Source: Chloroflexota bacterium
GTDB lineage: Bacteria > Chloroflexota > Dormibacteria > CF-121
Assembly: GCA_005881175.1 (NCBI GenBank)
Contig: VBEN01000025.1
Span: forward strand, 21,548-85,547
Direction: 5' to 3'
DNA length: 64,000 nt
A program made the position numbers and the translations under genes. The notes under the pieces were generated by a model that was not told the origin of the DNA, did not search any database, and worked only from the letters and a program-made list of their open reading frames with translations. Below, piece by piece: positions 21,190 through 63,779 of this stretch. Each line of letters opens with the position of its first letter. Position 1 is the stretch's first letter.

Positions 21190-21848
21190 TCAGGTTTTCT
21201 TCCGGGGCGTCGTGGGTTGTTGGTGCCGCCGGCGGCGGATCTCCTGGATGATCGCGATCACGCCGAAGATGATCACGAACGCCAGGATCCCGTAAAACTC
21301 CAGGTACCGTCCGAGGATCGTCACGATGCTGTCCCCCGGGGCGCCGGTCGGCGCCGTGGCCGCGTATTGTACTGGATCTCCTTGAAGGCGCCCGGCGGGA
21401 AGCGCATCGTCAGGTGATACATGGCGGCGATGGTGACCGGGCCATCGCCAGGCTGCCCCACGCAGTTGATGCGATAGACGTTGCCCCGGATGTCGATACC
21501 TGACGGGGCGGCCGGCGGGTTTGCCTCCGGTTCGATCGTGCATTTCACGGCCTGCGCCCCCGCCGGCGCTTTAAAGAAGCCGGGACCGAAAAACATGATC
21601 ACCTGGTTGTCGCCGGTCTGCGGGCCACCGCCCGCGACCTGGCCGTTCTGCACCGGAAGGATTACCTCGCCGGACAGCGGCGGCTTGTTGCCCGCCTTGA
21701 GATTTGGCGGCGGGGATTCCCAGCGATAGGGCTCAGGCGGCACAACGATGCCGTCATACAGCGGCGGCGCGGAGCGAGTGTGCAGCAGCGCCGCGGCCAT
21801 CAGGCCGAGCGCCAGCGCGACCAGGCCGACGCGCCGGGTGGGCATCAT
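21190..21848 (-). pseudogene. Secreted/C-terminally anchored protein of unknown function, apparent frameshift
   Basis: ATG 21848 overlaps the CPBP stop (ATGA). The signal/TM 'MMPTRRVGLVALALGLMAAALL' and the body run to '...FKEIQYN' in one frame (stop at 21321). The C-terminal '...AATAPTGAPGDSIVTILGRYLEFYGILAFVIIFGVIAIIQEIRRRR...' (TM anchor, stop at 21190) is in another frame. The junction is near 21363-21374. Confidence 0.5.
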
Positions 21849-32122: not shown

Positions 32123-32631
32123 CGGCGCGTGCCGCGAGAACCGCCACGGCCCCGTTCCGGCAAGGCTGGCGCGCCGCGAGGGCTCCGGCCAGTGAGCCGG
32201 GGCCCCGCGAGCAGCAGCCCGCTGCCCAGCGCGGCGGAGGCGAGCATAACGATGAGCGTCGCAAGTCCGACGATATAGGTGCTGGTCAACGTTCCGGCAA
32301 AGTCTTCCGGCACCGCGCAACAGACACGCACCGGCCAGGCGGTTGCACCGAGCACAACCGCGAGAAGCGCGAACAGGGCCGCTGACACCGCCGCGCCGAT
32401 GATCCATTCGCGGCCGAACGGCCCCACGGCCGACGCCGCGAGGCCCGTGGTTTCTCGCAGCAGAGCTATCAGGAGCGCGGCGCTCACGGTCGTGAAAACC
32501 AGAAGCTGGAGAGCAAAGAGCAGGAACGGAGCGATCGTCAGGTAGAGCAGCGCGACCAGCACCATGCTGCCGGCGAAGGCACCGATGGCGTAGAGGGTGT
32601 TGCGCATGAGCACGCCGCCGATCAACAGCAC
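32119..32631 (-). CDS. nuoJ: NADH-quinone oxidoreductase subunit J, N-terminally short
   Basis: 'VLLIGGVLMRNTLYAIGAFAGSMVLVALLYL...LQLLVFTTVSAALLIALL' is NuoJ-like. Only about 9 residues precede the conserved 'RN', against about 20 in homologues I recall. The upstream in-frame codons are hydrophilic and run into a stop. Confidence 0.75.
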   Translation of the reverse strand: MLLIGGVLMRNTLYAIGAFAGSMVLVALLYLTIAPFLLFALQLLVFTTVSAALLIALLRETTGLAASAVGPFGREWIIGAAVSAALFALLAVVLGATAWPVRVCCAVPEDFAGTLTSTYIVGLATLIVMLASAALGSGLLLAGPRLTGRSPRGAPALPERGRGGSRGTRR

Positions 32632-40508: not shown

Positions 40509-41363
40509 TCAGGACGGAATGCAGCTTGGTCCGATCGAGTTGTTGTCGTTGACCTTGACGTGCATCGGACTGCCCTTGGCCATCGCGATGCCGTACGGGG
40601 CGACGCTGCATCCGCTCCCTGTGGTCTTCAGCTTGCCGCCGGTCACCTTCACTTGATAGGCAGCGATCTGGGAGTCGAGAAAGCCGATGTCGGCCCGCCC
40701 GGACATCAGCGCTGAGTTGGCGTCGGTCTGCTTCTCAAAGCTCGTGACCTTGATGGGCTGCTTGCTAGCTGCGGCGCAGTTGTCCTTGGCACCGGCGGTC
40801 GGCGTGCCGCCAATTTCCTTGCCCATGAACGCCCAGGCGTCGGTTTCCTCGGTGGTTCCCGTTTCGACCGCGACCGTATGACCGCACATGTCTGCGGCGC
40901 TATTGACGGTAAGGTTGCCCGAGGCCTTTACCACCCAGCCTTCTCCCGCCTTGTAGTAGCTGACAAAGTCGATGCCCTTGGCCTCGCGCTCTTGGGTTGG
41001 GGTAAAGCTGGAGATCCCGAGCAGATAGCGCGGCTCGCTGGCGGTGAGCTGCGGAATGATGTTCGAGAAGATGACGTTGTTGAAGGTGCAGGCGACCCCC
41101 ATCACCTTGCAGACGGCTTTGCCGAAATCGATATCCCACCCGACGATGTCACCGGTGTTCTCGTCGACGTACTCATCGGGCGAGTAGGTCGCATCGGTCG
41201 CAATCTGGATCGGCGCCTTTGACTTGATGGAATCCGGCAGCTCCGCGGCAATACTGGCTACCTTGTTCGGCCCGCCCGAGCTCGCTGCAGGGCCCGCCGT
41301 CCCGCCTCCGCAGGCGGCGAGCGTCAAGGCTACCCCAATTAGGACCACTGGCAAACGCTTCAT
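40509..41363 (-). CDS. Polar amino-acid ABC transporter substrate-binding lipoprotein (family 3)
   Basis: Lipoprotein signal 'MKRLPVVLIGVALTLAAC', followed by a family-3 SBP-like body. Confidence 0.85.
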   Translation of the reverse strand: MKRLPVVLIGVALTLAACGGGTAGPAASSGGPNKVASIAAELPDSIKSKAPIQIATDATYSPDEYVDENTGDIVGWDIDFGKAVCKVMGVACTFNNVIFSNIIPQLTASEPRYLLGISSFTPTQEREAKGIDFVSYYKAGEGWVVKASGNLTVNSAADMCGHTVAVETGTTEETDAWAFMGKEIGGTPTAGAKDNCAAASKQPIKVTSFEKQTDANSALMSGRADIGFLDSQIAAYQVKVTGGKLKTTGSGCSVAPYGIAMAKGSPMHVKVNDNNSIGPSCIPS

Positions 41364-41448: not shown

Positions 41449-42051
41449 TCAGGCCACAGGCACGCGCGTGAGGTAGTCGAAGATCAACTGCGACCAGGAC
41501 TCCATGTCCAGGTAGTAGCTCCGCATGGCGTCGAGTGGCAGCAGTGCGCCCGCAAGCTTGTCCACTTCGCGGATCGAGATCTCTGGCCGGTCGCCCTCCA
41601 CCAAAAAGATCAGCCCGACGTGCACCCGGCCAACCGGCGTCGTCTGGTCGTTGATCGCCCCCAGTAGCCGGGTCGAGAAGTGCCCATCGTAGACGACTTC
41701 CTCCTGCCATTCCCGCCGCAGCCCGGCCTCGATCGGGTCGGCAGCCCCGGCGACGTCTTCGGGATTGATGTGCCCGCCAACCCCCAGCGAGTACAGATGC
41801 CGCAGCCGGCGCTCGCTGGAACGGCGTAGCCGGTGGGTCAGGAAATAACGATCTTCGTGACGAAAGACGACGTAGGGAATGATCTGTGGCTCGGACGGGT
41901 CGTCCTCCACCTCGCGCCGCGGCCGGAACCGGTAGCCGGCGCGCACGCGAGTCTGCAGCTCAACCAGATCGGTGTCACGAAAGCCCACCCACTCGTTGCC
42001 CGCGAACAGGGCACCGCGAGGAACGACCAGGACCTCTTCGCGCGCGCCCAC
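41449..42051 (-). CDS. NUDIX-like hydrolase (divergent)
   Basis: Degenerate Nudix box 'GVGGHINPED...IEAGLRREWQEEV'. Length is 200 aa. Confidence 0.55.
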   Translation of the reverse strand: MGAREEVLVVPRGALFAGNEWVGFRDTDLVELQTRVRAGYRFRPRREVEDDPSEPQIIPYVVFRHEDRYFLTHRLRRSSERRLRHLYSLGVGGHINPEDVAGAADPIEAGLRREWQEEVVYDGHFSTRLLGAINDQTTPVGRVHVGLIFLVEGDRPEISIREVDKLAGALLPLDAMRSYYLDMESWSQLIFDYLTRVPVA

Positions 42052-42096
42052 CGGATGAGTCTAATGGGACTTTCGGGGTAGATGGATCGCGAGCCC

Positions 42097-42906
42097 CTAG
42101 TCGCCGTGTTCCTTATCCGTGGGACGCGGCGTCGGCCGAACGGTCGGCTGCGGGGTTGGTCGTGGCGTCGCTTGCTCGCCGATCAGCAGGGTCGGTGTCG
42201 CGATCGCATCCTCTTCTTCGATCCGGTCGAGCTCGTCGTTCGCGGCCGCAACGAGCTGTTTGATGTCCTCATCGTCGTCGCCGCGGCTGGCGTTTTCGCG
42301 CTCGACCGCGTCCAGCTTGACGTGCAGAGTATGCAGCGCTTCCTTGGCGGCCTTGGGGTTGGCCGGATTCTTTAGCGCGGCTGCCGCGTCATCGACAGTC
42401 ACCCGGAAGGCTCGCAGGCTGTTCTCGGCGAGCAGCGGCTTGTGATGGCCGGCCATCACTTGGGCTTCCCGGAGCCGCTCATTCGCCAGCTCCAGCTGAA
42501 TGGCCAGCCGCTCATTCGTCGGCGCGAGCGCCAGGCGCACGCTCTCTTCGAGTTGTTTGACCGGGTAAAGAGGATTGTCCGGGAGCGCGGACGGTGCCGC
42601 AAATGCGCTGCCCCCGGCGGCGAGTGCGGCGGTCGCGGCCATGGCGAAGGCAACGCCGAGGCGCCGATAGGATTGAATCCAAGGAATCCGCAACACACGG
42701 CGCTGCGGCAAGACAGCCTGGAGGTTTAGCCAGAACGGCGCGAAGGCCACCGGCGGAGCGGGCGGGAGCGTGACCAGCAGCAGGTTCAGCTCACGGACCT
42801 CGCGCAGTTCGTGGGCGCAGGTTGGACAGCCGGTGATGTGGCCGTCGATCCGGCGGCGCTCGATTTCATGCCGTATTCGCCTCCTCGGACGGGCCGACGA
42901 GGTCAC
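42097..42906 (-). CDS. Anti-sigma factor (zf-HC2 type) with periplasmic helical domain
   Basis: 'HITGCPTCAHEL' (H-x3-C-x2-C), one TM 'LGVAFAMAATAALAAGG' and a coiled C-terminal domain. It overlaps the upstream ECF sigma gene by 41 nt. Confidence 0.7.
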   Translation of the reverse strand: MTSSARPRRRIRHEIERRRIDGHITGCPTCAHELREVRELNLLLVTLPPAPPVAFAPFWLNLQAVLPQRRVLRIPWIQSYRRLGVAFAMAATAALAAGGSAFAAPSALPDNPLYPVKQLEESVRLALAPTNERLAIQLELANERLREAQVMAGHHKPLLAENSLRAFRVTVDDAAAALKNPANPKAAKEALHTLHVKLDAVERENASRGDDDEDIKQLVAAANDELDRIEEEDAIATPTLLIGEQATPRPTPQPTVRPTPRPTDKEHGD

Positions 42907-43465
42907 CCAGGCGCTCCCGGAGCAGGCGCTTCGCCCCGTTTAGGCGCGACATCACGGTGCCAAGCGGAATGTCGAGGGCTTTGGCGATCTCGTCGTAGCT
43001 GAGCTCGCCAAAGGCCTGGAGGGCGATGGTGTCACGGTAGTGCGGCGGCAGGCTCGCGATCGCGTAACGGACGGCCCGCTGAAGGTCGTGGCGAGCGGCG
43101 ACATCCTGCGGATCGGAGCCAGCGCTGACGAGCGACTGTTCGAGTCCGTCGATCGAGATCACCGGCCGGCGCCGCCGGAGCGCGTCGGTCACGGTATTGG
43201 CCGCCACCCGGTGCAGCCAGTGCTTGAAGGGTTTGTCGTGGCGATACGTCGGCAGGGCTTTGTAGACCTTGATAAAGACGTCCTGGGCGACGTCTTCGGC
43301 CAGCGCGAGCTCCCCCAGGGCTCGGAAGGCAACGTTGATCACCAACCGGTGGTAGCGGAGCACGAGCTGGCGGAAGGCCTCCTGGTCCCCCGCCGCGCTC
43401 CGATCGATTAACCGGCGTTCCTCGGCGTCCCCCTCGGTTGAGGGAATCTCTTCCGACTGGGCCAT
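42866..43465 (-). CDS. ECF RNA polymerase sigma factor
   Basis: 'AFRQLVLRYHRLVINVAFR...AEDVAQDVFIKVYKAL' and 'LPPHYRDTIALQAFGELSYDEIAKALDIPLGTVMSRL'. Confidence 0.9.
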   Translation of the reverse strand: MAQSEEIPSTEGDAEERRLIDRSAAGDQEAFRQLVLRYHRLVINVAFRALGELALAEDVAQDVFIKVYKALPTYRHDKPFKHWLHRVAANTVTDALRRRRPVISIDGLEQSLVSAGSDPQDVAARHDLQRAVRYAIASLPPHYRDTIALQAFGELSYDEIAKALDIPLGTVMSRLNGAKRLLRERLGDLVGPSEEANTA

Positions 43466-44238
43466 CTCCCGACGATGTGACGCGGCCCAGCGGATGGGCT
43501 TGCGACGCGCGGCGCCTGGGCAATGGCATCCAGCAACGCGCTGGCGACGATGGCGCCGTCGGCCTTGCCCTCCAGCGCCGCCAGATGCTCCGGTTTGGAG
43601 ATGCCAAAGCCGACCACGACCGGCAGTGTGGTGTGCCGGCGCACCACCTCGATGAGCGGCAGGACAGCCGGATCCAGCTGCGCCCGCGCCCCAGTGACGC
43701 CGGTGACGGCGACGCAGTAGATGAATCCGGTGGCGGCTCGGCAGGCCGCCTCGATCCCGGTGTCGCTGCTGGTGGGCGCGACGAAGAACACCAGGTCGAT
43801 GCCGGCCGCATCGGCCGCCGGGCGGAGCTCGCCCGATTCGGCCGGCGGCAGGTCCGGCACGATGAGCCCGTCGATGCCGGCCGCCTTCGCCGCCCGGCAG
43901 AAGCGGTCGAGGCCAAAGGCCAGGATGGGATTGAGATAGGTCATGAACAGCAGAGGCACCTGGGTCACCGACCGAGCGGCCTGCGCAGACTCGAGGGCGC
44001 CGGCAACGGTCATACCGGCCTTGAGCGCGAGCTGCGAGGCCGCCTGGATGGTCCGACCGTCGGCCAGCGGATCCGAGAAGGGAATGCCCAGCTCGACCGC
44101 GTCGGCGCCTGCCCCGGCTGCCGCCTCGACCAGTGCGGGGGTGAGCGCCAGCCGAGGATAGCCAACCGTGAGGTACGCGATCAGGGCCAGGCGCCGCTCC
44201 GCGCGGACTCGGGCGAACATCGACCCGATCCGGCTCAC
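43408..44238 (-). CDS. trpA: Tryptophan synthase alpha chain
   Basis: 'LIAYLTVGYP', 'GADAVELGIPFSDPLADG' and 'VVGFGIS'. The basic C-terminal tail overlaps the sigma gene start by 58 nt. Confidence 0.9.
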   Translation of the reverse strand: MSRIGSMFARVRAERRLALIAYLTVGYPRLALTPALVEAAAGAGADAVELGIPFSDPLADGRTIQAASQLALKAGMTVAGALESAQAARSVTQVPLLFMTYLNPILAFGLDRFCRAAKAAGIDGLIVPDLPPAESGELRPAADAAGIDLVFFVAPTSSDTGIEAACRAATGFIYCVAVTGVTGARAQLDPAVLPLIEVVRRHTTLPVVVGFGISKPEHLAALEGKADGAIVASALLDAIAQAPRVASPSAGPRHIVGRWPSRKRFPQPRGTPRNAG

Positions 44239-45484: not shown

Positions 45485-46095
45485 GACTCGCTCACCCCGC
45501 GGACGGCTGCGACAAAGGCGCGGAGCTTGGCCGGATCCTTGCGGCCCGGCTCGGCCTCGACGCCGCTGCAGACGTCGACGCCCCAGGGATGCAGGGCGCG
45601 CACCGCGCCGTCGACGTTTGTCGGCGTCAGTCCCCCGGAGACGATCACTGGATAGCGGCGGGCCACCTCCGTCGCCTGGCTCCAGGCCCAGGTTCGTCCG
45701 GTGCCACCGATGGTGTCCGGCGCCCAGGTGTCGAGTAGGGGATGGTCGCCCTCATCGAACCGCATGGTGCTGAGCTCCTCGCCGGCGTGGACTCGAAACG
45801 CGGGCAGCAGCAGCAGGCCGAGCGCGCGATCGGCGGCGCTCAGCGGCCGGTAAACCTGGATTGCGGTCAGGGCGCATGCCTGCGCGACGGCGCCGATCTC
45901 GTCGGGTGTTTCGTCGACAAAGACGCCCACCCGCGCGACCGTGGCCGGCACATCGGCGAGCAGCGCCTGGGCCTGGTCGACGCGAACCTGCCGCTTGCTG
46001 CGGGTGAAGATGAATCCGAGGAGGTCGACGCCCAGCTCGACCGCGAGCTGGACGTCGGCATGTTGCGTGTTCCCGCATACTTTGATCTTTGTCAC
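45481..46095 (-). CDS. trpF: Phosphoribosylanthranilate isomerase
   Basis: 'KIKVCGNT', 'DLLGFIF', 'GGTG' and 'GGL.P.NV' motifs. Both ends have 4-nt overlaps with neighbouring genes. Confidence 0.9.
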
Positions 46096-46836
46096 GGTCC
46101 GCTGAGCTCCCGGACCTTGGCATCCAGGTCCGCCGCGCGCAGCAGCGACTCGCCCACCAGCGCCGCATCGACGCCCAGCCGGTCGAGCTCATCGATGTCG
46201 GCGCGCTTGTCGATGCCGCTCTCGCTGATCACGAGCCAGCCGGGGGGAATCAGCGTTCGCAACCGCGCGGTGATCTCATGGTCAGTCTTCATCGTTGTGA
46301 GATTCCGGTTGTTGATGCCGATGATCTCGGAACGGACCCGAAGCGCGCGCCGCAGCTCCGCTTCCGAATGAACCTCGACGACCACCGACATCCCGAGCCG
46401 GATGGCCACGTCATGGAGGCTCGCCAGCTCGCCGTCCTGAAGAATCGCCGCGATCCGTTCCGAGATCATCGGCATCAACAACCGGGATCTCGACGGCGGC
46501 GTGCACCGCTTGCAGGTGATCGAGATTGCCTCCGAAAAATTCCGGCTCGGTGAGCACCGAAATCGCCGATGCGCCGTTGGCCGCGTATCGGCGCGCCAGC
46601 GCAACCGGGTCATAGTCACGCTGCAAAAGTCCGCCGGACGGCGAGCGTTGCTTGCATTCGGCGATCAGGGCCACACCCCGTCGGCGTAAGGCGCCTCGAA
46701 AATCGCGGACCGGCGGTGCGGCGGTGACCGATCGCGGCAAGCCTTTGGCCGCCCCGGAGGCTTTGAGTCGAGCGATCGAGGCGCGCCGTGCCTCGAGAAT
46801 ACGGTCGAGGATTGGCGCGGTGTGAGTAGCCATCAA
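46092..46836 (-). pseudogene. trpC: Indole-3-glycerol-phosphate synthase, disrupted (frameshift plus replaced catalytic segment)
   Basis: The N-terminal ORF 46836->46411 ('ILDRILEARR...ALIAECKQRSPSGG...SVLTEPEFFGG...AVEIPV') and the C-terminal ORF to 46092 ('...VVVEVHSEAELRRAL...IIGINNRNL...LVISESGI...') are in different frames. The 'LRKDF...' segment between them is replaced by an inverted copy of downstream sequence. Confidence 0.8.
46301..46489. repeat. Inverted repeat: 32-bp perfect arms (46305-46336 and 46454-46485), or 36 bp with one mismatch, with a 117-bp spacer, inside trpC
   Basis: 'ccggttgttgatgccgatgatctcggaacgga' on the plus strand at 46305 equals the reverse complement of 46454-46485. 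Verified base by base. Confidence 0.9.
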
Positions 46837-46851: not shown

Positions 46852-48030
46852 TTACGCCCGGGCTGCCGTCTTCTCCAGGACTCCTTTCATCCGCTTGACC
46901 CCCTCTTCGATCTGGTCGACCGAGTTCGCGTACGACAGCCGCAGATAGCCTTTCCCTGCCTCCCCAAACGAGGTGCCGGCGAGCACCGCGACCCCGCCTT
47001 CATTCAGCATCCGGTCCGCCAGCTCGCGCTCATTCTGACCGGTCCTTGTGATGTTCGGAAACACGTAGAAGGCGCCCAGCGGCTTATGGCAGCTCACGCC
47101 GGGCAACGCGTTGAGCCGATCAACGACGACGTCCCGGCGGCGCTTGAATTCCGCGACCATGCCCTGAACGGCCGCGTCGGATCGGGGCGAAAGCGCCTCG
47201 ATGGCCGCCATCTGGGTGAACGCGGCCGCGCACGAGCTGCTGTTGATCATCAGCGTCTCCATCTTCTGCGCCAGCGGGAGCGGGGCGACCGCGAATCCAA
47301 GCCGCCAGCCGCACATCGCATAAGCCTTGCTCAGCCCGTCCGAGTAGATCGTCCGCTCGAGCATGCCCGGCACGGTCATGATCGACGCGTGGTGGCCGTC
47401 GTAAGTGATCTGGCCGTAGACCTCATCGCTCAGCACATAGAAGTCGTGCTTTTGCGCCAGCTCGCCAATCTGCTCCAGATCACGGGTTGACAGCACGCCG
47501 CCGGTCGGGTTCTGGGGAGAGTTGATCACGAGGAGCTTCGTCCGGGGCGTGATCTTTGATTTGAGCTCCTCGATGTCGAGCCGAAAATCGTTGCGCTCGC
47601 GAAGCGGGATTGCCACCGGCGTGCCTCCGGCAAGCGTCGCCACCGAGGCATAGATCGGATACCCGGGGTCCGGGATGATGACCTCGTCGCCGTTCTCGAC
47701 CAGAGCCAGCATGGTGAACAGTAGGACGTTCTTTGACCCGGGGACCATGACCACCTGCTCGGGCTTGACATCGACTTCGTACCAGCGCCGGATCCACTCA
47801 GCCACGGCCTGCCGGGCCGGCATCAGTCCGCCCGCCGGGGTGTAGTGCGTGTAGCCGTCGCGGAGCGCCCGCTGGGCGGCTTCGACGATGTTCGGGGGCG
47901 TCGGAAAATCGGGTTCGCCAATCTCGAGATGCACGATGTTGCGGCCCTGCGCTTCCAACTTGCGCGCCTTGGCCAACACCTCGAAGGCGGTTTCGGTGCC
48001 GATCTCGTCCATGCGGCGAGCGAATTTCAC
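46852..48030 (-). CDS. Pyridoxal-phosphate-dependent aminotransferase (class I/II, aspartate aminotransferase-like)
   Basis: 'INSPQNPTG', the PLP lysine in 'SDGLSKAYAMCGWRLG', and 'LRLSYA'. Confidence 0.9.
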   Translation of the reverse strand: MKFARRMDEIGTETAFEVLAKARKLEAQGRNIVHLEIGEPDFPTPPNIVEAAQRALRDGYTHYTPAGGLMPARQAVAEWIRRWYEVDVKPEQVVMVPGSKNVLLFTMLALVENGDEVIIPDPGYPIYASVATLAGGTPVAIPLRERNDFRLDIEELKSKITPRTKLLVINSPQNPTGGVLSTRDLEQIGELAQKHDFYVLSDEVYGQITYDGHHASIMTVPGMLERTIYSDGLSKAYAMCGWRLGFAVAPLPLAQKMETLMINSSSCAAAFTQMAAIEALSPRSDAAVQGMVAEFKRRRDVVVDRLNALPGVSCHKPLGAFYVFPNITRTGQNERELADRMLNEGGVAVLAGTSFGEAGKGYLRLSYANSVDQIEEGVKRMKGVLEKTAARA

Positions 48031-54072: not shown

Positions 54073-54512
54073 CTCGAGAGCTCGCGCTCGACCAAGGCCT
54101 TCAACAGGGCAAGATCCCGCTCGAAAGTTCGGCGGATCAGCGGCTGCCAGACCCACATTCCGAGTTTCCCGACCAATCCCCAGGGCGGGATCAGCGTTTC
54201 GATCCACACAATACGGGTGCCGGATCGCTCGCGAACGCAGCGCATCACGCCTCTCCCCTTCACCCACCCGCGGTGCTCGATCTCCAAGAGATCCGGTGGC
54301 TCCCAGCGGGCGACCCGCATCGGGTCGATGGTCGAAAGCCACCCGATCCGGATCATGGCATCGGCCTCGACCCCGACGCCTTCTCGGTGCGGGGAAGTGA
54401 CGCGGAACCTGGATGCCTCTTTCATCCAGCTCCCAAGGTGTTCCCAATCGACGAGATAGTGCCAGATCACTTCCGGCGGGGCGTCGATAACCTTCGATGT
54501 CTTTACTTCCAT
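54069..54512 (-). CDS. SRPBCC-family protein (polyketide cyclase/dehydrase-like fold)
   Basis: 'MEVKTSKVIDAPPEVIWHYLVDWEHLGSWM...' has the typical SRPBCC N-terminus. Length is 147 aa. Confidence 0.8.
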   Translation of the reverse strand: MEVKTSKVIDAPPEVIWHYLVDWEHLGSWMKEASRFRVTSPHREGVGVEADAMIRIGWLSTIDPMRVARWEPPDLLEIEHRGWVKGRGVMRCVRERSGTRIVWIETLIPPWGLVGKLGMWVWQPLIRRTFERDLALLKALVERELSS

Positions 54513-56324: not shown

Positions 56325-56892
56325 CCGGACGCCGTCCGCTGCGGACTCGCGGCCGCGCTTGGGCGAAGGCGCTCGCCAGTTGGCTCTCGGCGCGTGCCGT
56401 CGAGCCAAACTCGATATCCGTCTTTAGCCTGGTCCCTGCCGCCAGCGCCGGCGCATGCTTTCTGCTCCTCCCGCATGCCACCCGCGGCATCCAGATCCTT
56501 CTCCTGCTGCTCGCGGCTGGCCTCATTCGCCCGACCGCTTTGCCGACGTCTTGATCCTCGCATCGGCTGGCTACGCGCTCTCCTGGCTGGGCACGCTCGG
56601 CATCACGTTCGGGTGGCTCGTCGCGGTGCTTGCTGTGCTCAGCGCCTACGTGCGCGTGTTCGGCGGCTCGCTCGGGTTCCAACAGAGCTTCACTGGTCCG
56701 ATGGCGAAACAGCACCGGATGGCCATCCTCACGCTCGCGTGCCTCGCCTCCATTCTCGAAGTCATCGCCGCCGGTTATCACGGGGGCATCCTGAGCCTCG
56801 GCCTCCTCATCATCGGCCTCGGCACTGTCCTCACCATCATCCGACGCCTGGATCGAATCGCACGCCTGTTGCAGGAGCGGGGGGCCAAATGA
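56321..56892 (+). pseudogene. CDP-alcohol phosphatidyltransferase family gene, frameshifted with loss of the D-G-x2-A-R part of the catalytic motif
   Basis: Frame A (56321-56554) gives '...ILLLLLAAGLI' and then a stop. Another frame continues 'PDRFADVLILASAGYAL...GPMAKQHRMAILTLA...' to 56892. The roughly 27 residues normally between them ('..LR..CN.LDG..A....G...') are absent in all frames. Confidence 0.65.
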
Positions 56893-58459: not shown

Positions 58460-58550
58460 ATGTAGACCGTTACCTTTGCTTGTCGATGTTGTCGAGAAAC
58501 TTCGAGGGAGCCAATAGCGTCCTCCGATGCTGATATCAAGCGGGCGGCCC

Positions 58551-59183: not shown

Positions 59184-61198
59184 ATCCGGGCGAGCGCGTG
59201 ACGCAGGATTTCCGCCACGCTCCAGGCCTGCGCGATACACCCCACCGGGCGGTAGGGCGGCTCCGGCTCGAAGATCTCGCTGATGCTGCCGAGTCCAGCC
59301 TCGCCCAGGTGGGCCCGGAATGGTTCGAGCAACCGGCCAACCATCTCGCGATCGCCATAGATGCGGAGGTGGGCATCGAGGTACGGTCCGACGAGCCACG
59401 GCCAGACCAATCCCTGGTGATAAGCGGCGTCGCGGGTGCGCTGGCCGCCACGGTAGGCCGGCTGATAGCGCTCGTCATCGGGGCTCAGGGTGCGAAGCCC
59501 GTATGGGGTCAGGAGCCTGGCGCTGACGGTGTCGAGGGCCGAGCGCGCCTGATCCCCGTCGATGAGCGGGTATGCCAGCGATAGGGCGATCAGCTGGTTT
59601 GGCCGGAGAGTCGGGTCATCCCCCGCTGGTCCGTCCACGACGTCGTAGCAGTAGCCGCCCGGGGCGTACCAGAACCGCAGCCGCGCCGACTCGCGCGCCT
59701 GCGTCGCCATCCGCGAGAAATGCTGGCCTGATCGCGTCGCCCGCTCAGACCAGTCGGCGATCAGCCGCAGCGCGTTGTACCAGAGCGCGTTGATCTCGAT
59801 CGGTTTGCCGCGCCGCGGGGTGACCACCCAGTCCTGGACTCGGGCATCCATCCACGTCAGCGCGTAACCCTCCTCGCCGCCCGCCAGCAATCCATCGTCG
59901 GGATCCATCCGGATGTTGTGCCGTGTTCCGCGGACGTGCCAGTCGATGACCCCCTGCAGCGCGTCGAGCCGGTCGGCCACGAATCGCCAATCACCGCTTA
60001 CCTGAAGGTAGGTCGAGAGCGCCTGAAACATCCAGAGCGTCGCGTCCATGGTGTCGTACTCGGGTGGCTGCCCGCTGTCGGGAAAGCGGTTGGGAATCAG
60101 GCCCTGGTCAAGGTATCGGATGCTGGTGTCGAGCACCGCGCGAGCCTCCCACAGCATCCCCGGTCTCATGGCCAGCCCGGGCAGACTGATCATGGTGTCG
60201 CGCCCCCAGTCGGTGAACCAGTGATAGCCGGCGATCACCGTGCGCTGCGGACTTCGGGGTGACGCAGTCGGCGTCCGGCGCGCCACCCGAAATTGCTCAG
60301 CCGCCAGGGCCAGCTGACACGCGAGTGGGTTGTCCGTCGCGGGATCCTCCGACAGCGACTGCCTTTCGACGGCTGCCTGGAACGAGGCGGCCGCCTCCCA
60401 GCCGGGCGGAGCCGGTTCGGTGCCAGTCACGACGCTGACCTGGGCGTCCTGACTCAGCGGAACCTCGACCACGCCGGGCGTGAACAGGTCCTCCTCGTCG
60501 TCGAGTCCCCGCTCCTGCTCCGCGCGGTGAAGAACGCGCCAGTACCAATCGGGATGGCTGCGGATAACCGGCAGGGGACGGACCTCGAGATAGCTACGCA
60601 CCCCCTCGGCATCGATGATCCATCCGTCGCTGGTCTCGGCCATGTCGAACCCGCCCTGACCGTGCCGCTGCTGGTGATAGTCGCGATGGGCGAAGAGTGG
60701 CCGCAGCTGCAACGTGGTGGAGGCGCCGGCGACCAGCCGGTAACTGATCACGGAGCGGTTGGCCTCGTGTTCCATCCAGATGCGCTTCTCGATGGTGCGA
60801 CCCTCGACCGTCCAGCGGAACACCGGCAGCATGCCGTCCAGCTCGACAGCATCCAGATGCGCGAAGCCTTCGGGATAGACGGTTCCGTCCCAGTACTCTT
60901 GAGCCGCCAGCGACCCGGGCTCATTCGACGTCAGCAGCCATTCCTCCAGGGCCGCGAGCAGGACCATCCGCTGCACCGGCGGGTTCATCGAGGCGACCAG
61001 CAACCCGTGATAGCGCCGGGTGTTAACGCCGGCCACGGTTCCGGATGCGTAGCCGCCCAGCCCGTTGGTCACCAGCCATTCGCGGCTCAGCGCGCTCTCC
61101 AGATTGCGACAGGTTTCAGGACCGAGACGCAACCCCACGATCGTGTTACCCGGCCGCGATGGTGAGAAGGGTCTTGATGTCTTGCGGCCGGCGATCAA
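59180..61198 (-). CDS. Glycogen debranching enzyme (amylo-alpha-1,6-glucosidase, GDE_C family)
   Basis: 'NGLGGYASGTVAGVNTRRYHGLL' and 'GYHWFTDWGRDTMISLPGL'. ATG 61198 overlaps the upstream gene by 53 nt, and GTG 61138 is an alternative start. Confidence 0.85.
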   Translation of the reverse strand: MIAGRKTSRPFSPSRPGNTIVGLRLGPETCRNLESALSREWLVTNGLGGYASGTVAGVNTRRYHGLLVASMNPPVQRMVLLAALEEWLLTSNEPGSLAAQEYWDGTVYPEGFAHLDAVELDGMLPVFRWTVEGRTIEKRIWMEHEANRSVISYRLVAGASTTLQLRPLFAHRDYHQQRHGQGGFDMAETSDGWIIDAEGVRSYLEVRPLPVIRSHPDWYWRVLHRAEQERGLDDEEDLFTPGVVEVPLSQDAQVSVVTGTEPAPPGWEAAASFQAAVERQSLSEDPATDNPLACQLALAAEQFRVARRTPTASPRSPQRTVIAGYHWFTDWGRDTMISLPGLAMRPGMLWEARAVLDTSIRYLDQGLIPNRFPDSGQPPEYDTMDATLWMFQALSTYLQVSGDWRFVADRLDALQGVIDWHVRGTRHNIRMDPDDGLLAGGEEGYALTWMDARVQDWVVTPRRGKPIEINALWYNALRLIADWSERATRSGQHFSRMATQARESARLRFWYAPGGYCYDVVDGPAGDDPTLRPNQLIALSLAYPLIDGDQARSALDTVSARLLTPYGLRTLSPDDERYQPAYRGGQRTRDAAYHQGLVWPWLVGPYLDAHLRIYGDREMVGRLLEPFRAHLGEAGLGSISEIFEPEPPYRPVGCIAQAWSVAEILRHALARI

Positions 61199-63007: not shown

Positions 63008-63779
63008 TCAGTACCCACCTGGCGAGTAGGGACGCCAGCTGTGACGGTGCCGTCCGTGAGCCAAGCGTAAGCACCAGGTAGCCGACGGCTACCGCGACGA
63101 TCGACAGGCCGAAGCTGAGACGGCTCACCTGGCGATCGAACACGGCGATCGATACCAGCATGCCGGCAAGGAGAAGACCCACGGCCGCGATCTCGGCCCC
63201 TGGGCGACCAAGGGCAACCGCAAGCGTGTTCACGCCGGCTGCGCGATCAAGAGCGCGATCTGGGATGGCATCGGCAAGGTGGATCGACACCGACAGCGGA
63301 ATGCCGCCCAGCAAAACGGCGCCGAGGGCGTCCATTGGGCGCCCCGCGATCATGGCCACCCACAGCGGCAGCAAGGGGAACGCGATGGCGAATGGGAGAA
63401 AGCTGAGAGGCGTTCGTTTGAGCTTCAGGTCGTAGCCCCATCCGCAGGCGATGCCGAGCAGGACCATGCAAAACGCCAGGAGCCCGAAGCCGGACAACAC
63501 GCTGAGGACGAGCGCGGCGACGGCCCCCACCACGGCGATGACGACCGCGGTCCGCGGCGACAGGAGCCCGAGAGGAATGGGCCGCCGGCGGTCACTTCGA
63601 GCATCGAGGTCCTGATCGGCCCACTCGTTGAGTGCGCTGATGGAGAACTGGACGAGCAGCATGATGGCCGCGATCCACGACATCCGCCAATCATCGATCC
63701 GCAGGCCGAAAACGAGAGCAAACCCAATGGCCGTCACGGTGGTGACGACCGAGGGGATTGGATGGAGCAGCTCGATCAG
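62952..63779 (-). CDS. UbiA-family prenyltransferase (start codon unresolved)
   Basis: 'NEWADQDLDARSDRRRPIP' (N-x3-D-x3-D) and about 8 TM segments. The ORF's first 60 codons overlap the Hsp20 gene in another frame. The first TM 'LIELLHPIPSVVTTV' precedes the first canonical start (GTG 63737). A CTG lies at 63779. Confidence 0.7.
   Translation of the reverse strand: MIELLHPIPSVVTTVTAIGFALVFGLRIDDWRMSWIAAIMLLVQFSISALNEWADQDLDARSDRRRPIPLGLLSPRTAVVIAVVGAVAALVLSVLSGFGLLAFCMVLLGIACGWGYDLKLKRTPLSFLPFAIAFPLLPLWVAMIAGRPMDALGAVLLGGIPLSVSIHLADAIPDRALDRAAGVNTLAVALGRPGAEIAAVGLLLAGMLVSIAVFDRQVSRLSFGLSIVAVAVGYLVLTLGSRTAPSQLASLLARWVLIGIALLAALPLVASASGR

What the first reader, a model, noticed from the sequence alone, without database searches (positions are those of the whole stretch)
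46301..46489. trpC is broken by a perfect 32-bp inverted duplication of its own IIGINNR-coding segment
Seen directly: plus-strand 46305-46336 (ccggttgttgatgccgatgatctcggaacgga) is the exact reverse complement of 46454-46485. With 4 flanking nt the repeat is 36 bp with one mismatch, and the spacer is 117 bp. Arm 1 is the genuine minus-strand coding sequence for the conserved IGPS motif 'SEIIGINNRNL'. Arm 2 is an antisense copy of it, sitting exactly where IGPS enzymes normally encode 'PVLRKDFI...EAR..GADA', which includes a catalytic Lys. As a result the N-terminal ORF ('...AVEIPVVDADDLG..', stop at 46411) and the C-terminal ORF ('LLMPMISERIAAILQDGELASL...VVVEVH...') are in different frames, and roughly 16 residues are missing. 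The arm boundary coincides with a ccggtt/aaccgg microhomology. That is the classic footprint of a strand/template-switch (quasipalindrome) mutation, or of an MDA/phi29 or assembly chimera. trpF, trpB and trpA immediately downstream look intact.
Basis: partly seen in the sequence, partly recalled or inferred. Interest (0 to 1): 0.7.

Follow-up and report, generated by a model that had tools for sequence, protein, structure and literature searches.

The report
Assembly dropout breaks trpC in MAG
The broken tryptophan gene with its inverted 32-base copy is really in this deposited sequence, but it is one of seven short dropouts private to this one metagenome-assembled contig, so it is almost certainly an assembly artefact and not a mutation carried by the organism.

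Summary
Arms 46299-46336 and 46454-46491 form a 38-nt inverted repeat with one mismatch (32 nt perfect) and a 117-nt spacer; chance expectation is zero. trpC (minus strand) is split into two frames. Twelve contigs from twelve independent assemblies of the same soil population (99.7-99.9% identical) all carry an intact 263/264-codon trpC. The left junction has 11 nt of microhomology and the right has 2 nt, which is exact template-switch anatomy. However, the same contig (an NCBI Chloroflexi/Dormibacterota-like MAG from the Angelo meadow; IDBA-UD plus scaffold "error correction") has six more private losses of 65-101 nt. These break trpA, an anti-sigma gene, an SBP gene, a CDP-alcohol transferase-like gene and two others. 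The window has no private small indels and only 0.07% private SNPs. Independent assemblies end contigs at these sites, and one block bounded by two dropouts switches haplotype. The mutant junction occurs in no other assembly searched. Most likely this is a local mis-join with a fold-back chimeric tip (about 0.8); a real in vivo template switch is about 0.1.

The parts
46299..46336 (-). Arm 1: genuine trpC coding sequence (RSEIIGINNRNL). It is the template of the inverted copy.
   Evidence: The 29-nt core of the arm is present in all ten relatives first fetched, and the alignment shows the arm differs among them only at the NRNL/NRDL site. Repeat coordinates.
46454..46491 (-). Arm 2: made of 11 nt of retained upstream trpC (46481-46491), the 25-nt inverted filler (46456-46480) and a 2-nt ambiguous GA (46454-46455).
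46456..46480 (-). 25-nt filler TGTTGATGCCGATGATCTCGGAACG (sense strand). It is the reverse complement of the SEIIGINN codons and replaces 75 wild-type nt encoding [25 protein letters not shown].
   Evidence: Alignment with 10 wild-type contigs. BLAST breaks in 13 loci, which are 12 distinct contigs. Putting the 75 nt back gives one 264-codon ORF identical to the L001 protein.
46481..46491 (-). Left-junction microhomology GAGATCCCGGT (codons E-I-P-V). It is quasi-complementary to AACCGG[A/G]ATCTC at 46299-46310.
   Evidence: The single mismatch of the 38-nt repeat lies here.
46481..46833 (-). trpC N-terminal half (IGPS columns 1-114). As deposited it reads on out of frame to a stop at 46411. 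It is annotated in NCBI as hypothetical protein TMF89662.1 (140 aa).
46092..46455 (-). trpC C-terminal half (IGPS columns 138-254), in a different frame.
43508..43509 (-). Dropout S4: 67 wild-type nt replaced by 2 nt. It removes the last 20 codons and the stop codon of trpA.
   Evidence: All relatives spanning the site have the wild-type sequence (11 loci).
42861..42861 (-). Dropout S3: clean 98-nt loss that removes the start and the first ~22 codons of the anti-sigma (zf-HC2/DUF5667) gene.
   Evidence: 9 loci carry the wild-type sequence. The contig of L024 starts 4 nt away.
42862..43507 (-). 646-nt block (sigma-70 gene) bounded by S3 and S4. It carries a different strain haplotype: 8 private SNPs (1.24%), against 0-0.04% in the flanks.
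40561..40561 (-). Dropout S2: 101-nt loss inside an SBP_bac_3 solute-binding protein gene.
   Evidence: The contig of L025 ends exactly after the dropped segment.
32615..32616 (-). Dropout S7: 84-nt loss in a 198-aa gene just upstream of nuoK. It has the weakest support: one relative spans it fully and one partly.
   Evidence: The contig of L016 ends at 32615.
21367..21368 (-). Dropout S1: clean 86-nt loss inside a 248-aa hypothetical gene.
   Evidence: 3 loci.
56527..56528 (+). Dropout S6: 90 wild-type nt replaced by 2 nt inside a 219-aa CDP-alcohol phosphatidyltransferase-like gene.
   Evidence: 5 loci.

Best explanation
The broken trpC is a local assembly error in a public metagenome-assembled genome, not a property of the organism. 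The population's real trpC is an intact 263/264-codon gene. In this one contig the assembly lost 75 nt between two graph breakpoints. The left piece ends in a 25-nt 'tip' that is the reverse complement of sequence about 120 nt downstream. Such a tip is what a fold-back (inverted chimeric) molecule or read gives when a 3' end anneals at the 11-nt quasi-palindrome GAGATCCCGGT / ACCGG(A/G)ATCTC and is extended. The right junction, with only 2 nt of shared sequence, is a plain join like the six other 65-101-nt dropouts in the same contig. Shown: the lesion is private to this contig, the series of similar lesions, the junction anatomy, and the coincidence with breakpoints in other assemblies. Inferred: that the tip came from an in vitro chimeric read, and which software step (IDBA-UD scaffolding or the later scaffold 'error correction') made the joins.
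For: (1) Twelve distinct contigs from twelve independent assemblies, 99.7-99.9% identical to the window, all carry the wild-type 75 nt and none carries the inverted copy. (2) The mutant junction, and junction 1 on its own, have no exact match in the JGI metagenome contigs or the GTDB representative genomes. JGI assemblies do contain wild-type alleles of this gene. In the 90%-identity protein cluster, the 15 of 44 members listed are 263/264 aa or 194 aa, apart from this one 140-aa stub, which was seen on a single contig. (3) Six further window-private losses (86, 84, 101, 98, 67->2 and 90->2 nt) were found in 59.2 kb of comparison, and every relative spanning each site has the wild-type sequence. 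The 75 nt lost in trpC falls inside the same narrow 67-101 nt range. (4) The mutation spectrum is not natural. There are 0 private small indels and 31 private SNPs in 42,958 nt (0.07%), against 7 private deletions of 50-101 nt. Six of the seven are out of frame, hit conserved domains, and have 0-1 nt of microhomology. (5) The 646-nt block between dropouts S3 and S4 switches haplotype exactly at the two breakpoints. (6) Five of 46 true contig ends from other assemblers lie within 120 nt of a dropout (random mean 1.27, P about 0.018). One of them lies 13 nt upstream of the trpC junction. (7) The source is an 88.9-kb contig of an Angelo-meadow MAG (TMF89659-63). That project used IDBA-UD with mink 30 and then automatic correction of 'scaffolding errors'. 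The perfect arm of 30-32 nt is about the minimum k used. (8) Sonicated Illumina libraries are documented to give chimeric reads that carry cis-inverted copies of nearby DNA (PMC10908179).
Against: No reads were available, so lack of read support is inferred and not shown. The trpC lesion differs from the other six in having a long templated filler and an 11-nt microhomology, which is also exactly what a genuine in vivo template switch would leave. There is no haplotype switch at the trpC breakpoint itself (0.17% vs 0.28% mismatch to L001 on the two sides). The dropped segments show no unusual composition or strain variability that would explain assembly failure. The software step that produced N-free joins is not identified. 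The contig-end coincidence is only moderately significant.
Confidence: 0.8

Rival explanations
1. A genuine in vivo template-switch (quasipalindrome-type) mutation. During replication or repair a nascent 3' end ending in GAGATCCCGGT left its template and annealed to the complementary ACCGG(A/G)ATCTC about 190 nt away, on the opposite strand or on itself. It copied 25-27 nt and then returned 75 nt downstream of where it left. This knocked out trpC in this lineage, making it a tryptophan auxotroph.
For: The filler is an exact reverse complement of nearby sequence. There is 11-nt microhomology at one junction and 2 nt at the other. The single mismatch is kept on the retained side. The mechanism is well documented in bacteria (PMC7202029).
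Against: The allele is absent from 12 other assemblies of the same population and from the JGI contigs. It sits among six other private out-of-frame dropouts of the same size class. The amount of wild-type sequence lost (75 nt) matches that class, which would be a coincidence for an independent mutation. Classical quasipalindrome events perfect short hairpins and do not delete 75 nt.
Confidence: 0.1
2. All seven lesions are real scars of error-prone double-strand-break repair (NHEJ or alternative end joining) in a stressed soil bacterium. On this reading the trpC scar carries a snap-back templated insertion.
For: The deletions have 0-2 nt of microhomology, three of the seven have filler bases, and one filler is templated in inverted orientation.
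Against: This would mean seven gene-breaking deletions in 59 kb of a lineage only about 0.07% diverged in private SNPs and with no small indels. That rate implies hundreds of such deletions per genome, hitting conserved genes. None is seen in any other assembly. The breakpoints coincide with contig ends of other assemblers and with a haplotype switch.
Confidence: 0.03
3. An MDA (phi29) amplification chimera.
Against: The population's samples were direct PowerMax soil DNA extracts sequenced as standard 2x250 Illumina libraries, and no amplification is described. An MDA chimera has one junction, not two junctions 25 nt apart. It also does not explain the other six dropouts.
Confidence: 0.02
4. 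The window is ancestral and the relatives carry insertions at these seven sites.
For: None beyond the bare length difference.
Against: The extra segments in the relatives encode conserved profile columns: IGPS 115-137 including the xKDF lysine, Trp_syntA 238-250, and, by position in the genes rather than by a column-level check, the zf-HC2 N-terminus, part of CDP-OH_P_transf and part of SBP_bac_3. They also keep the genes in frame.
Confidence: 0

Closest known systems
Quasipalindrome-associated template-switch mutations (Ripley 1982 model; E. coli thyA/lacZ reporters of the Lovett laboratory, PMC7202029)
   Same: An imperfect inverted repeat becomes a longer perfect one. The new bases are the exact reverse complement of nearby sequence. 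There is microhomology at the switch points.
   Different: The arms are 117 nt apart, not a tight hairpin. 75 nt are deleted in the same event. The return junction has only 2 nt of homology. The allele is seen in only one assembly, together with six unrelated dropouts.
Fold-back / cis-inverted chimeric reads from Illumina library preparation (PDSM model, PMC10908179)
   Same: A short inverted copy of neighbouring DNA is joined at a natural inverted-repeat microhomology. These are low-frequency molecules that can seed wrong extensions where coverage or the graph breaks.
   Different: Those artefacts are described at read level in human capture data. That one entered this consensus is inferred here, not shown.
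Scaffolding or gap-closing mis-joins in short-read metagenome assemblies (IDBA-UD scaffolds, ra2.py curation)
   Same: The lesions are private, have a characteristic size and little microhomology, sit at graph breakpoints shared with other assemblers, and in one case flank a haplotype switch.
   Different: I could not find a published description of 65-101-nt N-free dropouts from these tools. The responsible step is not identified.
Indole-3-glycerol phosphate synthase, TrpC (Pfam PF00218; e.g. M. tuberculosis 3qja, S. solfataricus 1a53)
   Same: Both halves are clear IGPS (E 1e-28 and 5e-33). The gene order aminotransferase-trpC-trpF-trpB-trpA is the same as in the relatives.
   Different: As deposited, profile columns 115-137 are missing and the two halves are in different frames.

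Membership tests
Functional IGPS (TrpC, PF00218) | One ORF covering the whole (beta/alpha)8 profile | tested here: not met
   The window gives two ORFs covering columns 1-114 and 138-254 in different frames. The wild-type relatives cover columns 1-254 at 278.8 bits.
   The segment LCKDFIV... is present in all relatives and replaced in the window.
In vivo quasipalindrome template-switch mutation | The new bases are an exact reverse complement of nearby sequence | tested here: met
   25 nt of filler, 32 nt perfect including the microhomologies.
In vivo quasipalindrome template-switch mutation | Pre-existing microhomology at both switch points | tested here: met
   11 nt (10/11 or 11/11 depending on haplotype) at the left junction and 2 nt at the right.
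In vivo quasipalindrome template-switch mutation | The allele exists in real DNA molecules of the organism (read support, or independent recovery) | tested here: not met
   Absent from 12 independent contigs, from the JGI contigs and from the GTDB representatives. Read-level support could not be tested.
In vivo quasipalindrome template-switch mutation | An isolated event on an otherwise colinear background | tested here: not met
   There are six other private 65-101-nt dropouts in the same contig.
Assembly mis-join / dropout | Private to one assembly of a population that has been assembled many times | tested here: met
Assembly mis-join / dropout | Recurs along the contig with a characteristic size and an unnatural indel spectrum | tested here: met
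   Seven losses of 67-101 wild-type nt, 0 private small indels and 0.07% private SNPs.
Assembly mis-join / dropout | Breakpoints coincide with graph breakpoints (contig ends) in other assemblies, or with haplotype switches | tested here: met
   5 of 46 contig ends lie within 120 nt of a dropout, P about 0.018. There is a haplotype switch across the S3-S4 block. No haplotype switch is seen at the trpC site itself.
Assembly mis-join / dropout | No reads span the junction, and reads support the wild-type path | not testable with these tools

The most novel reading that the evidence does not exclude
The inverted segment records a genuine long-range template-switch event in a wild, uncultured Dormibacterota-like soil bacterium. 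A nascent strand jumped about 190 nt to the opposite strand at an 11-nt quasi-palindrome, copied 25 nt and returned 75 nt downstream. This inactivated trpC and created a natural tryptophan auxotroph within an otherwise prototrophic meadow population.
Probability: 0.1. Interest if true: 0.35.

Novelty: not a real feature. Interest (0 to 1): 0.1.

Why it matters
As biology it matters little, because the organism almost certainly has a normal trpC. It matters as quality control. A public MAG contig (proteins TMF89659-TMF89663) carries about one 65-101-nt dropout per 8 kb. These dropouts create false pseudogenes (trpC, trpA and others) and an NCBI 'hypothetical protein' that is really a truncated TrpC. 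Anyone inferring auxotrophy, pseudogenisation or mutational mechanisms from this genome, and possibly from other genomes of the same set, would be misled. It also shows that a textbook template-switch footprint in a single assembly is not enough evidence of a mutation.

Tried and rejected
(1) Searched for the mutant junction in GTDB representative genomes and JGI metagenome contigs, and for junction 1 alone in JGI contigs. There were no hits. The window's own record is evidently not searchable there. (2) Exact look-ups of TrpB, of a 275-aa protein and of the 140-aa stub in the contig index returned nothing. (3) Considered that N-runs had been stripped from a scaffold. The gap sizes at N-runs in related scaffolds are broad (about -5 to 510 nt), unlike the narrow 67-101 nt here, so this is possible but not favoured. 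(4) Considered a pure de Bruijn-graph artefact without any chimeric molecule. The two paths share only 11 nt, far below any k used, so a molecule or read with junction 1 is needed. (5) Looked for a cause in the dropped segments (strain variability, GC, folding) and found nothing unusual. (6) Looked for other fold-back events in the window and found none. (7) Looked for a second trpC in the window and found none. (8) Compared the sister-species MAG CF_152 (L033). Its trpC is intact at 263 aa. It lacks 150 nt in frame in the sigma-factor gene, which is ambiguous. (9) Tried to find a description of how ra2.py patches errors. I found only 'corrected or replaced with Ns'.

Full report
**1. The observation**

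The inverted repeat exists as described. The repeat finder reports arms 46299-46336 and 46454-46491, 38 nt, 97% complementary, with 117 nt between them. The perfect core is 32 nt (46305-46336 on the plus strand, 46454-46485 on the minus strand). It occurs only at those two places, and 100 dinucleotide-preserving shuffles gave zero matches. No other inverted repeat in the 64 kb comes close; the rest are 86% complementary or less.

trpC lies on the minus strand and is split into two ORFs:
- ORF 46411-46836 matches Pfam IGPS columns 1-114 (E 1.3e-28).
- ORF 46092-46619 matches columns 138-254 (E 4.9e-33) in a different frame.
- Comparison with solved IGPS structures gives the same picture: residues up to about 120 and from about 142 onward of the M. 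tuberculosis enzyme are present.

**2. What was there before**

The window's TrpF protein is encoded, letter for letter, on eleven other public metagenome contigs. More contigs of the same population were fetched through other window proteins. They are 99.7-99.9% identical to the window.

- The ten relatives first fetched were searched directly: all contain arm 1 and none contains the inverted copy.
- Twelve distinct contigs from twelve assemblies (metaSPAdes-style scaffolds, MEGAHIT k141 contigs, one NCBI metagenome) carry the wild-type 75 nt at the site.
- The wild-type sequence reads GAGATCCCGGT|CCTCTGTAAGGACTTC...GCCATCCTGCT|GATCGCGGCGATT. This gives a single 263/264-codon trpC encoding ...[36 protein letters not shown]....
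- The wild-type protein covers IGPS columns 1-254 at 278.8 bits.
- In the window the 75 nt between the bars are replaced by 25 nt, TGTTGATGCCGATGATCTCGGAACG. This is the reverse complement of the SEIIGINN codons about 120 nt downstream.
- Putting the 75 nt back restores one ORF identical to the L001 protein.

The loss is therefore 25 codons, including the lysine of the xKDF segment. The net loss is 50 nt, which causes the frame change.

**3. Junction anatomy**

- Left junction: the retained upstream sequence GAGATCCCGGT (codons E-I-P-V) is quasi-complementary to AACCGG(A/G)ATCTC (codons N-R-N/D-L) at the far end of arm 1. The match is 10/11 in the window's haplotype and 11/11 in the NRDL haplotype of L003, L004, L006 and L010. 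The single mismatch of the 38-nt repeat lies in this retained part.
- Right junction: only GA is shared.

This is exactly the footprint of a template switch or fold-back extension. A 3' end ending in ...GAGATCCCGGT anneals to the complementary site, is extended by 25-27 nt, and synthesis then resumes 75 nt downstream of the departure point. The mechanism is well known in vivo at quasipalindromes (PMC7202029). It is also documented in vitro: sonicated Illumina libraries yield chimeric reads carrying cis-inverted copies of nearby DNA (PMC10908179).

**4. The context changes the reading**

BLAST of all fetched relatives against the window covers 59.2 of the 64 kb. It shows that the trpC lesion is one of seven lesions private to the window. 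Every relative that spans each site has the wild-type sequence.

| Site | Window position | Wild-type nt -> window nt | What it breaks |
|---|---|---|---|
| S1 | 21367/21368 | 86 -> 0 | 248-aa hypothetical gene |
| S7 | 32615/32616 | 84 -> 0 | 198-aa gene upstream of nuoK (fewest spanning relatives) |
| S2 | 40561 | 101 -> 0 | SBP_bac_3 gene |
| S3 | 42861 | 98 -> 0 | start of the zf-HC2/DUF5667 anti-sigma gene |
| S4 | 43508-43509 | 67 -> 2 | last 20 codons and stop of trpA |
| S5 | 46456-46480 | 75 -> 25 | trpC |
| S6 | 56527-56528 | 90 -> 2 | CDP-alcohol phosphatidyltransferase-like gene |

- The wild-type lengths removed fall in a narrow band of 67-101 nt.
- Six of the seven net losses are not multiples of three.
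- Microhomology at the clean junctions is 0-1 nt.
- The window has no private small indel at all and only 31 private SNP alleles in 42,958 nt covered by at least three relatives (0.07%).

This is not a natural divergence spectrum. Natural divergence is dominated by SNPs and 1-few-nt indels. At this rate a genome would carry hundreds of gene-breaking deletions.

**5. Signs that the breakpoints are assembly joins**

- The 646-nt block between S3 and S4 carries 8 of the 31 private SNPs (1.24%, against 0-0.04% in the flanks). It differs from nine relatives at 13-33 positions, while eight of those nine differ from each other by 0-7. The haplotype therefore switches exactly at two dropouts, as expected if a separately assembled piece was placed between two joins.
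- Five of 46 true contig ends of the independent assemblies project within 120 nt of a dropout. Random placement gives a mean of 1.27, so P is about 0.018.
- L024 starts 4 nt from S3. L025 ends exactly after the 101-nt S2 segment. L016 ends at S7, and L024 ends 43 nt into S7. L006 starts 13 nt upstream of the trpC left junction.
- Population-level structural variation also sits at S2 (L024 has a longer allele) and beyond S3 (L003 has a 79%-identical anti-sigma allele).
- The dropped segments themselves are not unusual in GC, folding or variability.

**6. The source**

Exact protein look-up identifies the window as part of an 88,901-nt contig of an NCBI MAG labelled Chloroflexi bacterium:
- The 140-aa N-terminal stub is TMF89662.1, 'hypothetical protein E6I07_04255'.
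- The 276-aa read-through TrpA is TMF89659.1.
- TrpF is TMF89660.1, and the aminotransferase is TMF89663.1.

The closest GTDB species are another Angelo-meadow MAG (CF_152, 89% TrpB identity) and Candidatus Dormiibacterota MAGs (81-83%). That project assembled 2x250 reads, trimmed to 200 nt, with IDBA-UD (-mink 30 -maxk 200 -step 10). It then 'corrected scaffolding errors' automatically. I take that step to be the script ra2.py, which 'corrects or replaces with Ns'; the project paper itself does not name the script. No whole-genome amplification is described, so the MDA idea is not supported.

In the 90%-identity protein cluster of 44 members that contains the stub, the 15 members listed are otherwise 263/264 aa or 194 aa (a short start call), and the stub is seen on one contig only. 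Neither the full mutant junction nor junction 1 alone occurs in the JGI metagenome contigs or the GTDB representatives. JGI assemblies do hold wild-type alleles.

**7. Best explanation (about 0.8)**

The consensus-level lesion is a local mis-join in this one assembly. The 25-nt inverted piece is a chimeric tip at the end of the left-hand piece. It most likely derives from a fold-back molecule or read primed at the 11-nt quasi-palindrome. The right junction is a plain join of the same kind as the other six dropouts.

A pure k-mer artefact without such a molecule is excluded, because the two paths share only 11 nt. The perfect arm of 30-32 nt is close to the project's minimum k of 30, which is what a low-k unitig built over one chimeric junction would give. 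I regard this as suggestive only. I could not identify which software step made N-free joins of this size.

**8. Rivals**

- A genuine in vivo template-switch allele (about 0.1) fits the junctions equally well. It does not explain the privacy of the allele, the six sibling dropouts, or the matching size class.
- A series of real end-joining scars (about 0.03) is contradicted by the implied genome-wide load, the haplotype switch and the shared contig ends.
- An MDA chimera (about 0.02) does not fit the library type.
- 'Insertions in the relatives' is refuted, because the extra segments encode conserved profile columns and keep the frames open.

**9. Verdict**

Of its two readings, the artefact one is favoured. 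Its statement that trpA is intact is wrong. The finding is not a biological novelty. Its value is as a warning about this public MAG, and possibly its sister genomes, and about reading mutational mechanisms from a single metagenome assembly. Read mapping of the source sample across the seven junctions would settle it.

Noticed in passing
window 21367/8, 32615/6, 40561, 42861, 43508-9, 56527-8: Six further window-private dropouts of 65-101 nt relative to all independent assemblies. They break a hypothetical gene, a gene upstream of nuoK, an SBP_bac_3 gene, the anti-sigma gene start, the trpA 3' end and a CDP-alcohol phosphatidyltransferase-like gene.
   Followed up: yes
window 42862-43507: The sigma-70 gene block between two dropouts carries a distinct haplotype: 13 positions differ from all nine full-length relatives compared, and 8 are private against every relative covering the site. 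The flanks are nearly identical to the relatives.
   Followed up: yes
L003:7447-8411 vs window 41884-42861: One meadow contig carries an anti-sigma (zf-HC2/DUF5667) allele only 79% identical to the window, beginning right at the S3 breakpoint. The sigma/anti-sigma locus looks hypervariable in this population.
   Followed up: partly
L024 around window 40551-40561: L024 has 189 nt where other relatives have 101 nt and the window 0-9 nt (SBP gene of 344 aa vs 318 aa). This is a natural length polymorphism at the same spot as dropout S2.
   Followed up: no
L001:3420-4004 and equivalents (L002, L003, L005, L008-L010, L021, L022, L025): Gene callers in most independent assemblies call trpC as 194 aa, starting 70 codons inside the 263/264-codon ORF that matches IGPS columns 1-254. 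This is a systematic start miscall, not a truncation.
   Followed up: partly
window 58461-58545: A 50-78-nt length polymorphism among relatives, downstream of the CTP_transf_1 gene. The window shares the long allele with L011, so this one is natural variation and not a dropout.
   Followed up: no
window 59214-59243, 54348-54369, 63469-63498: Tight clusters of window-private SNPs (six in 30 nt at 59214-59243). They may be short recombination tracts from an unsampled strain or local consensus errors.
   Followed up: no
L033:7316/7317 (MAG CF_152, same project): The sister-species MAG lacks 150 nt (in frame) of the sigma-factor gene relative to L021. This could be real or another dropout of the same pipeline. 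Its trpC is intact (263 aa).
   Followed up: partly
window 46852-48030 and 46092-43408: The gene order is class I/II aminotransferase, trpC, trpF, trpB, trpA, followed by an ECF-type sigma/anti-sigma pair. No trpE, trpG or trpD is adjacent on this side.
   Followed up: no
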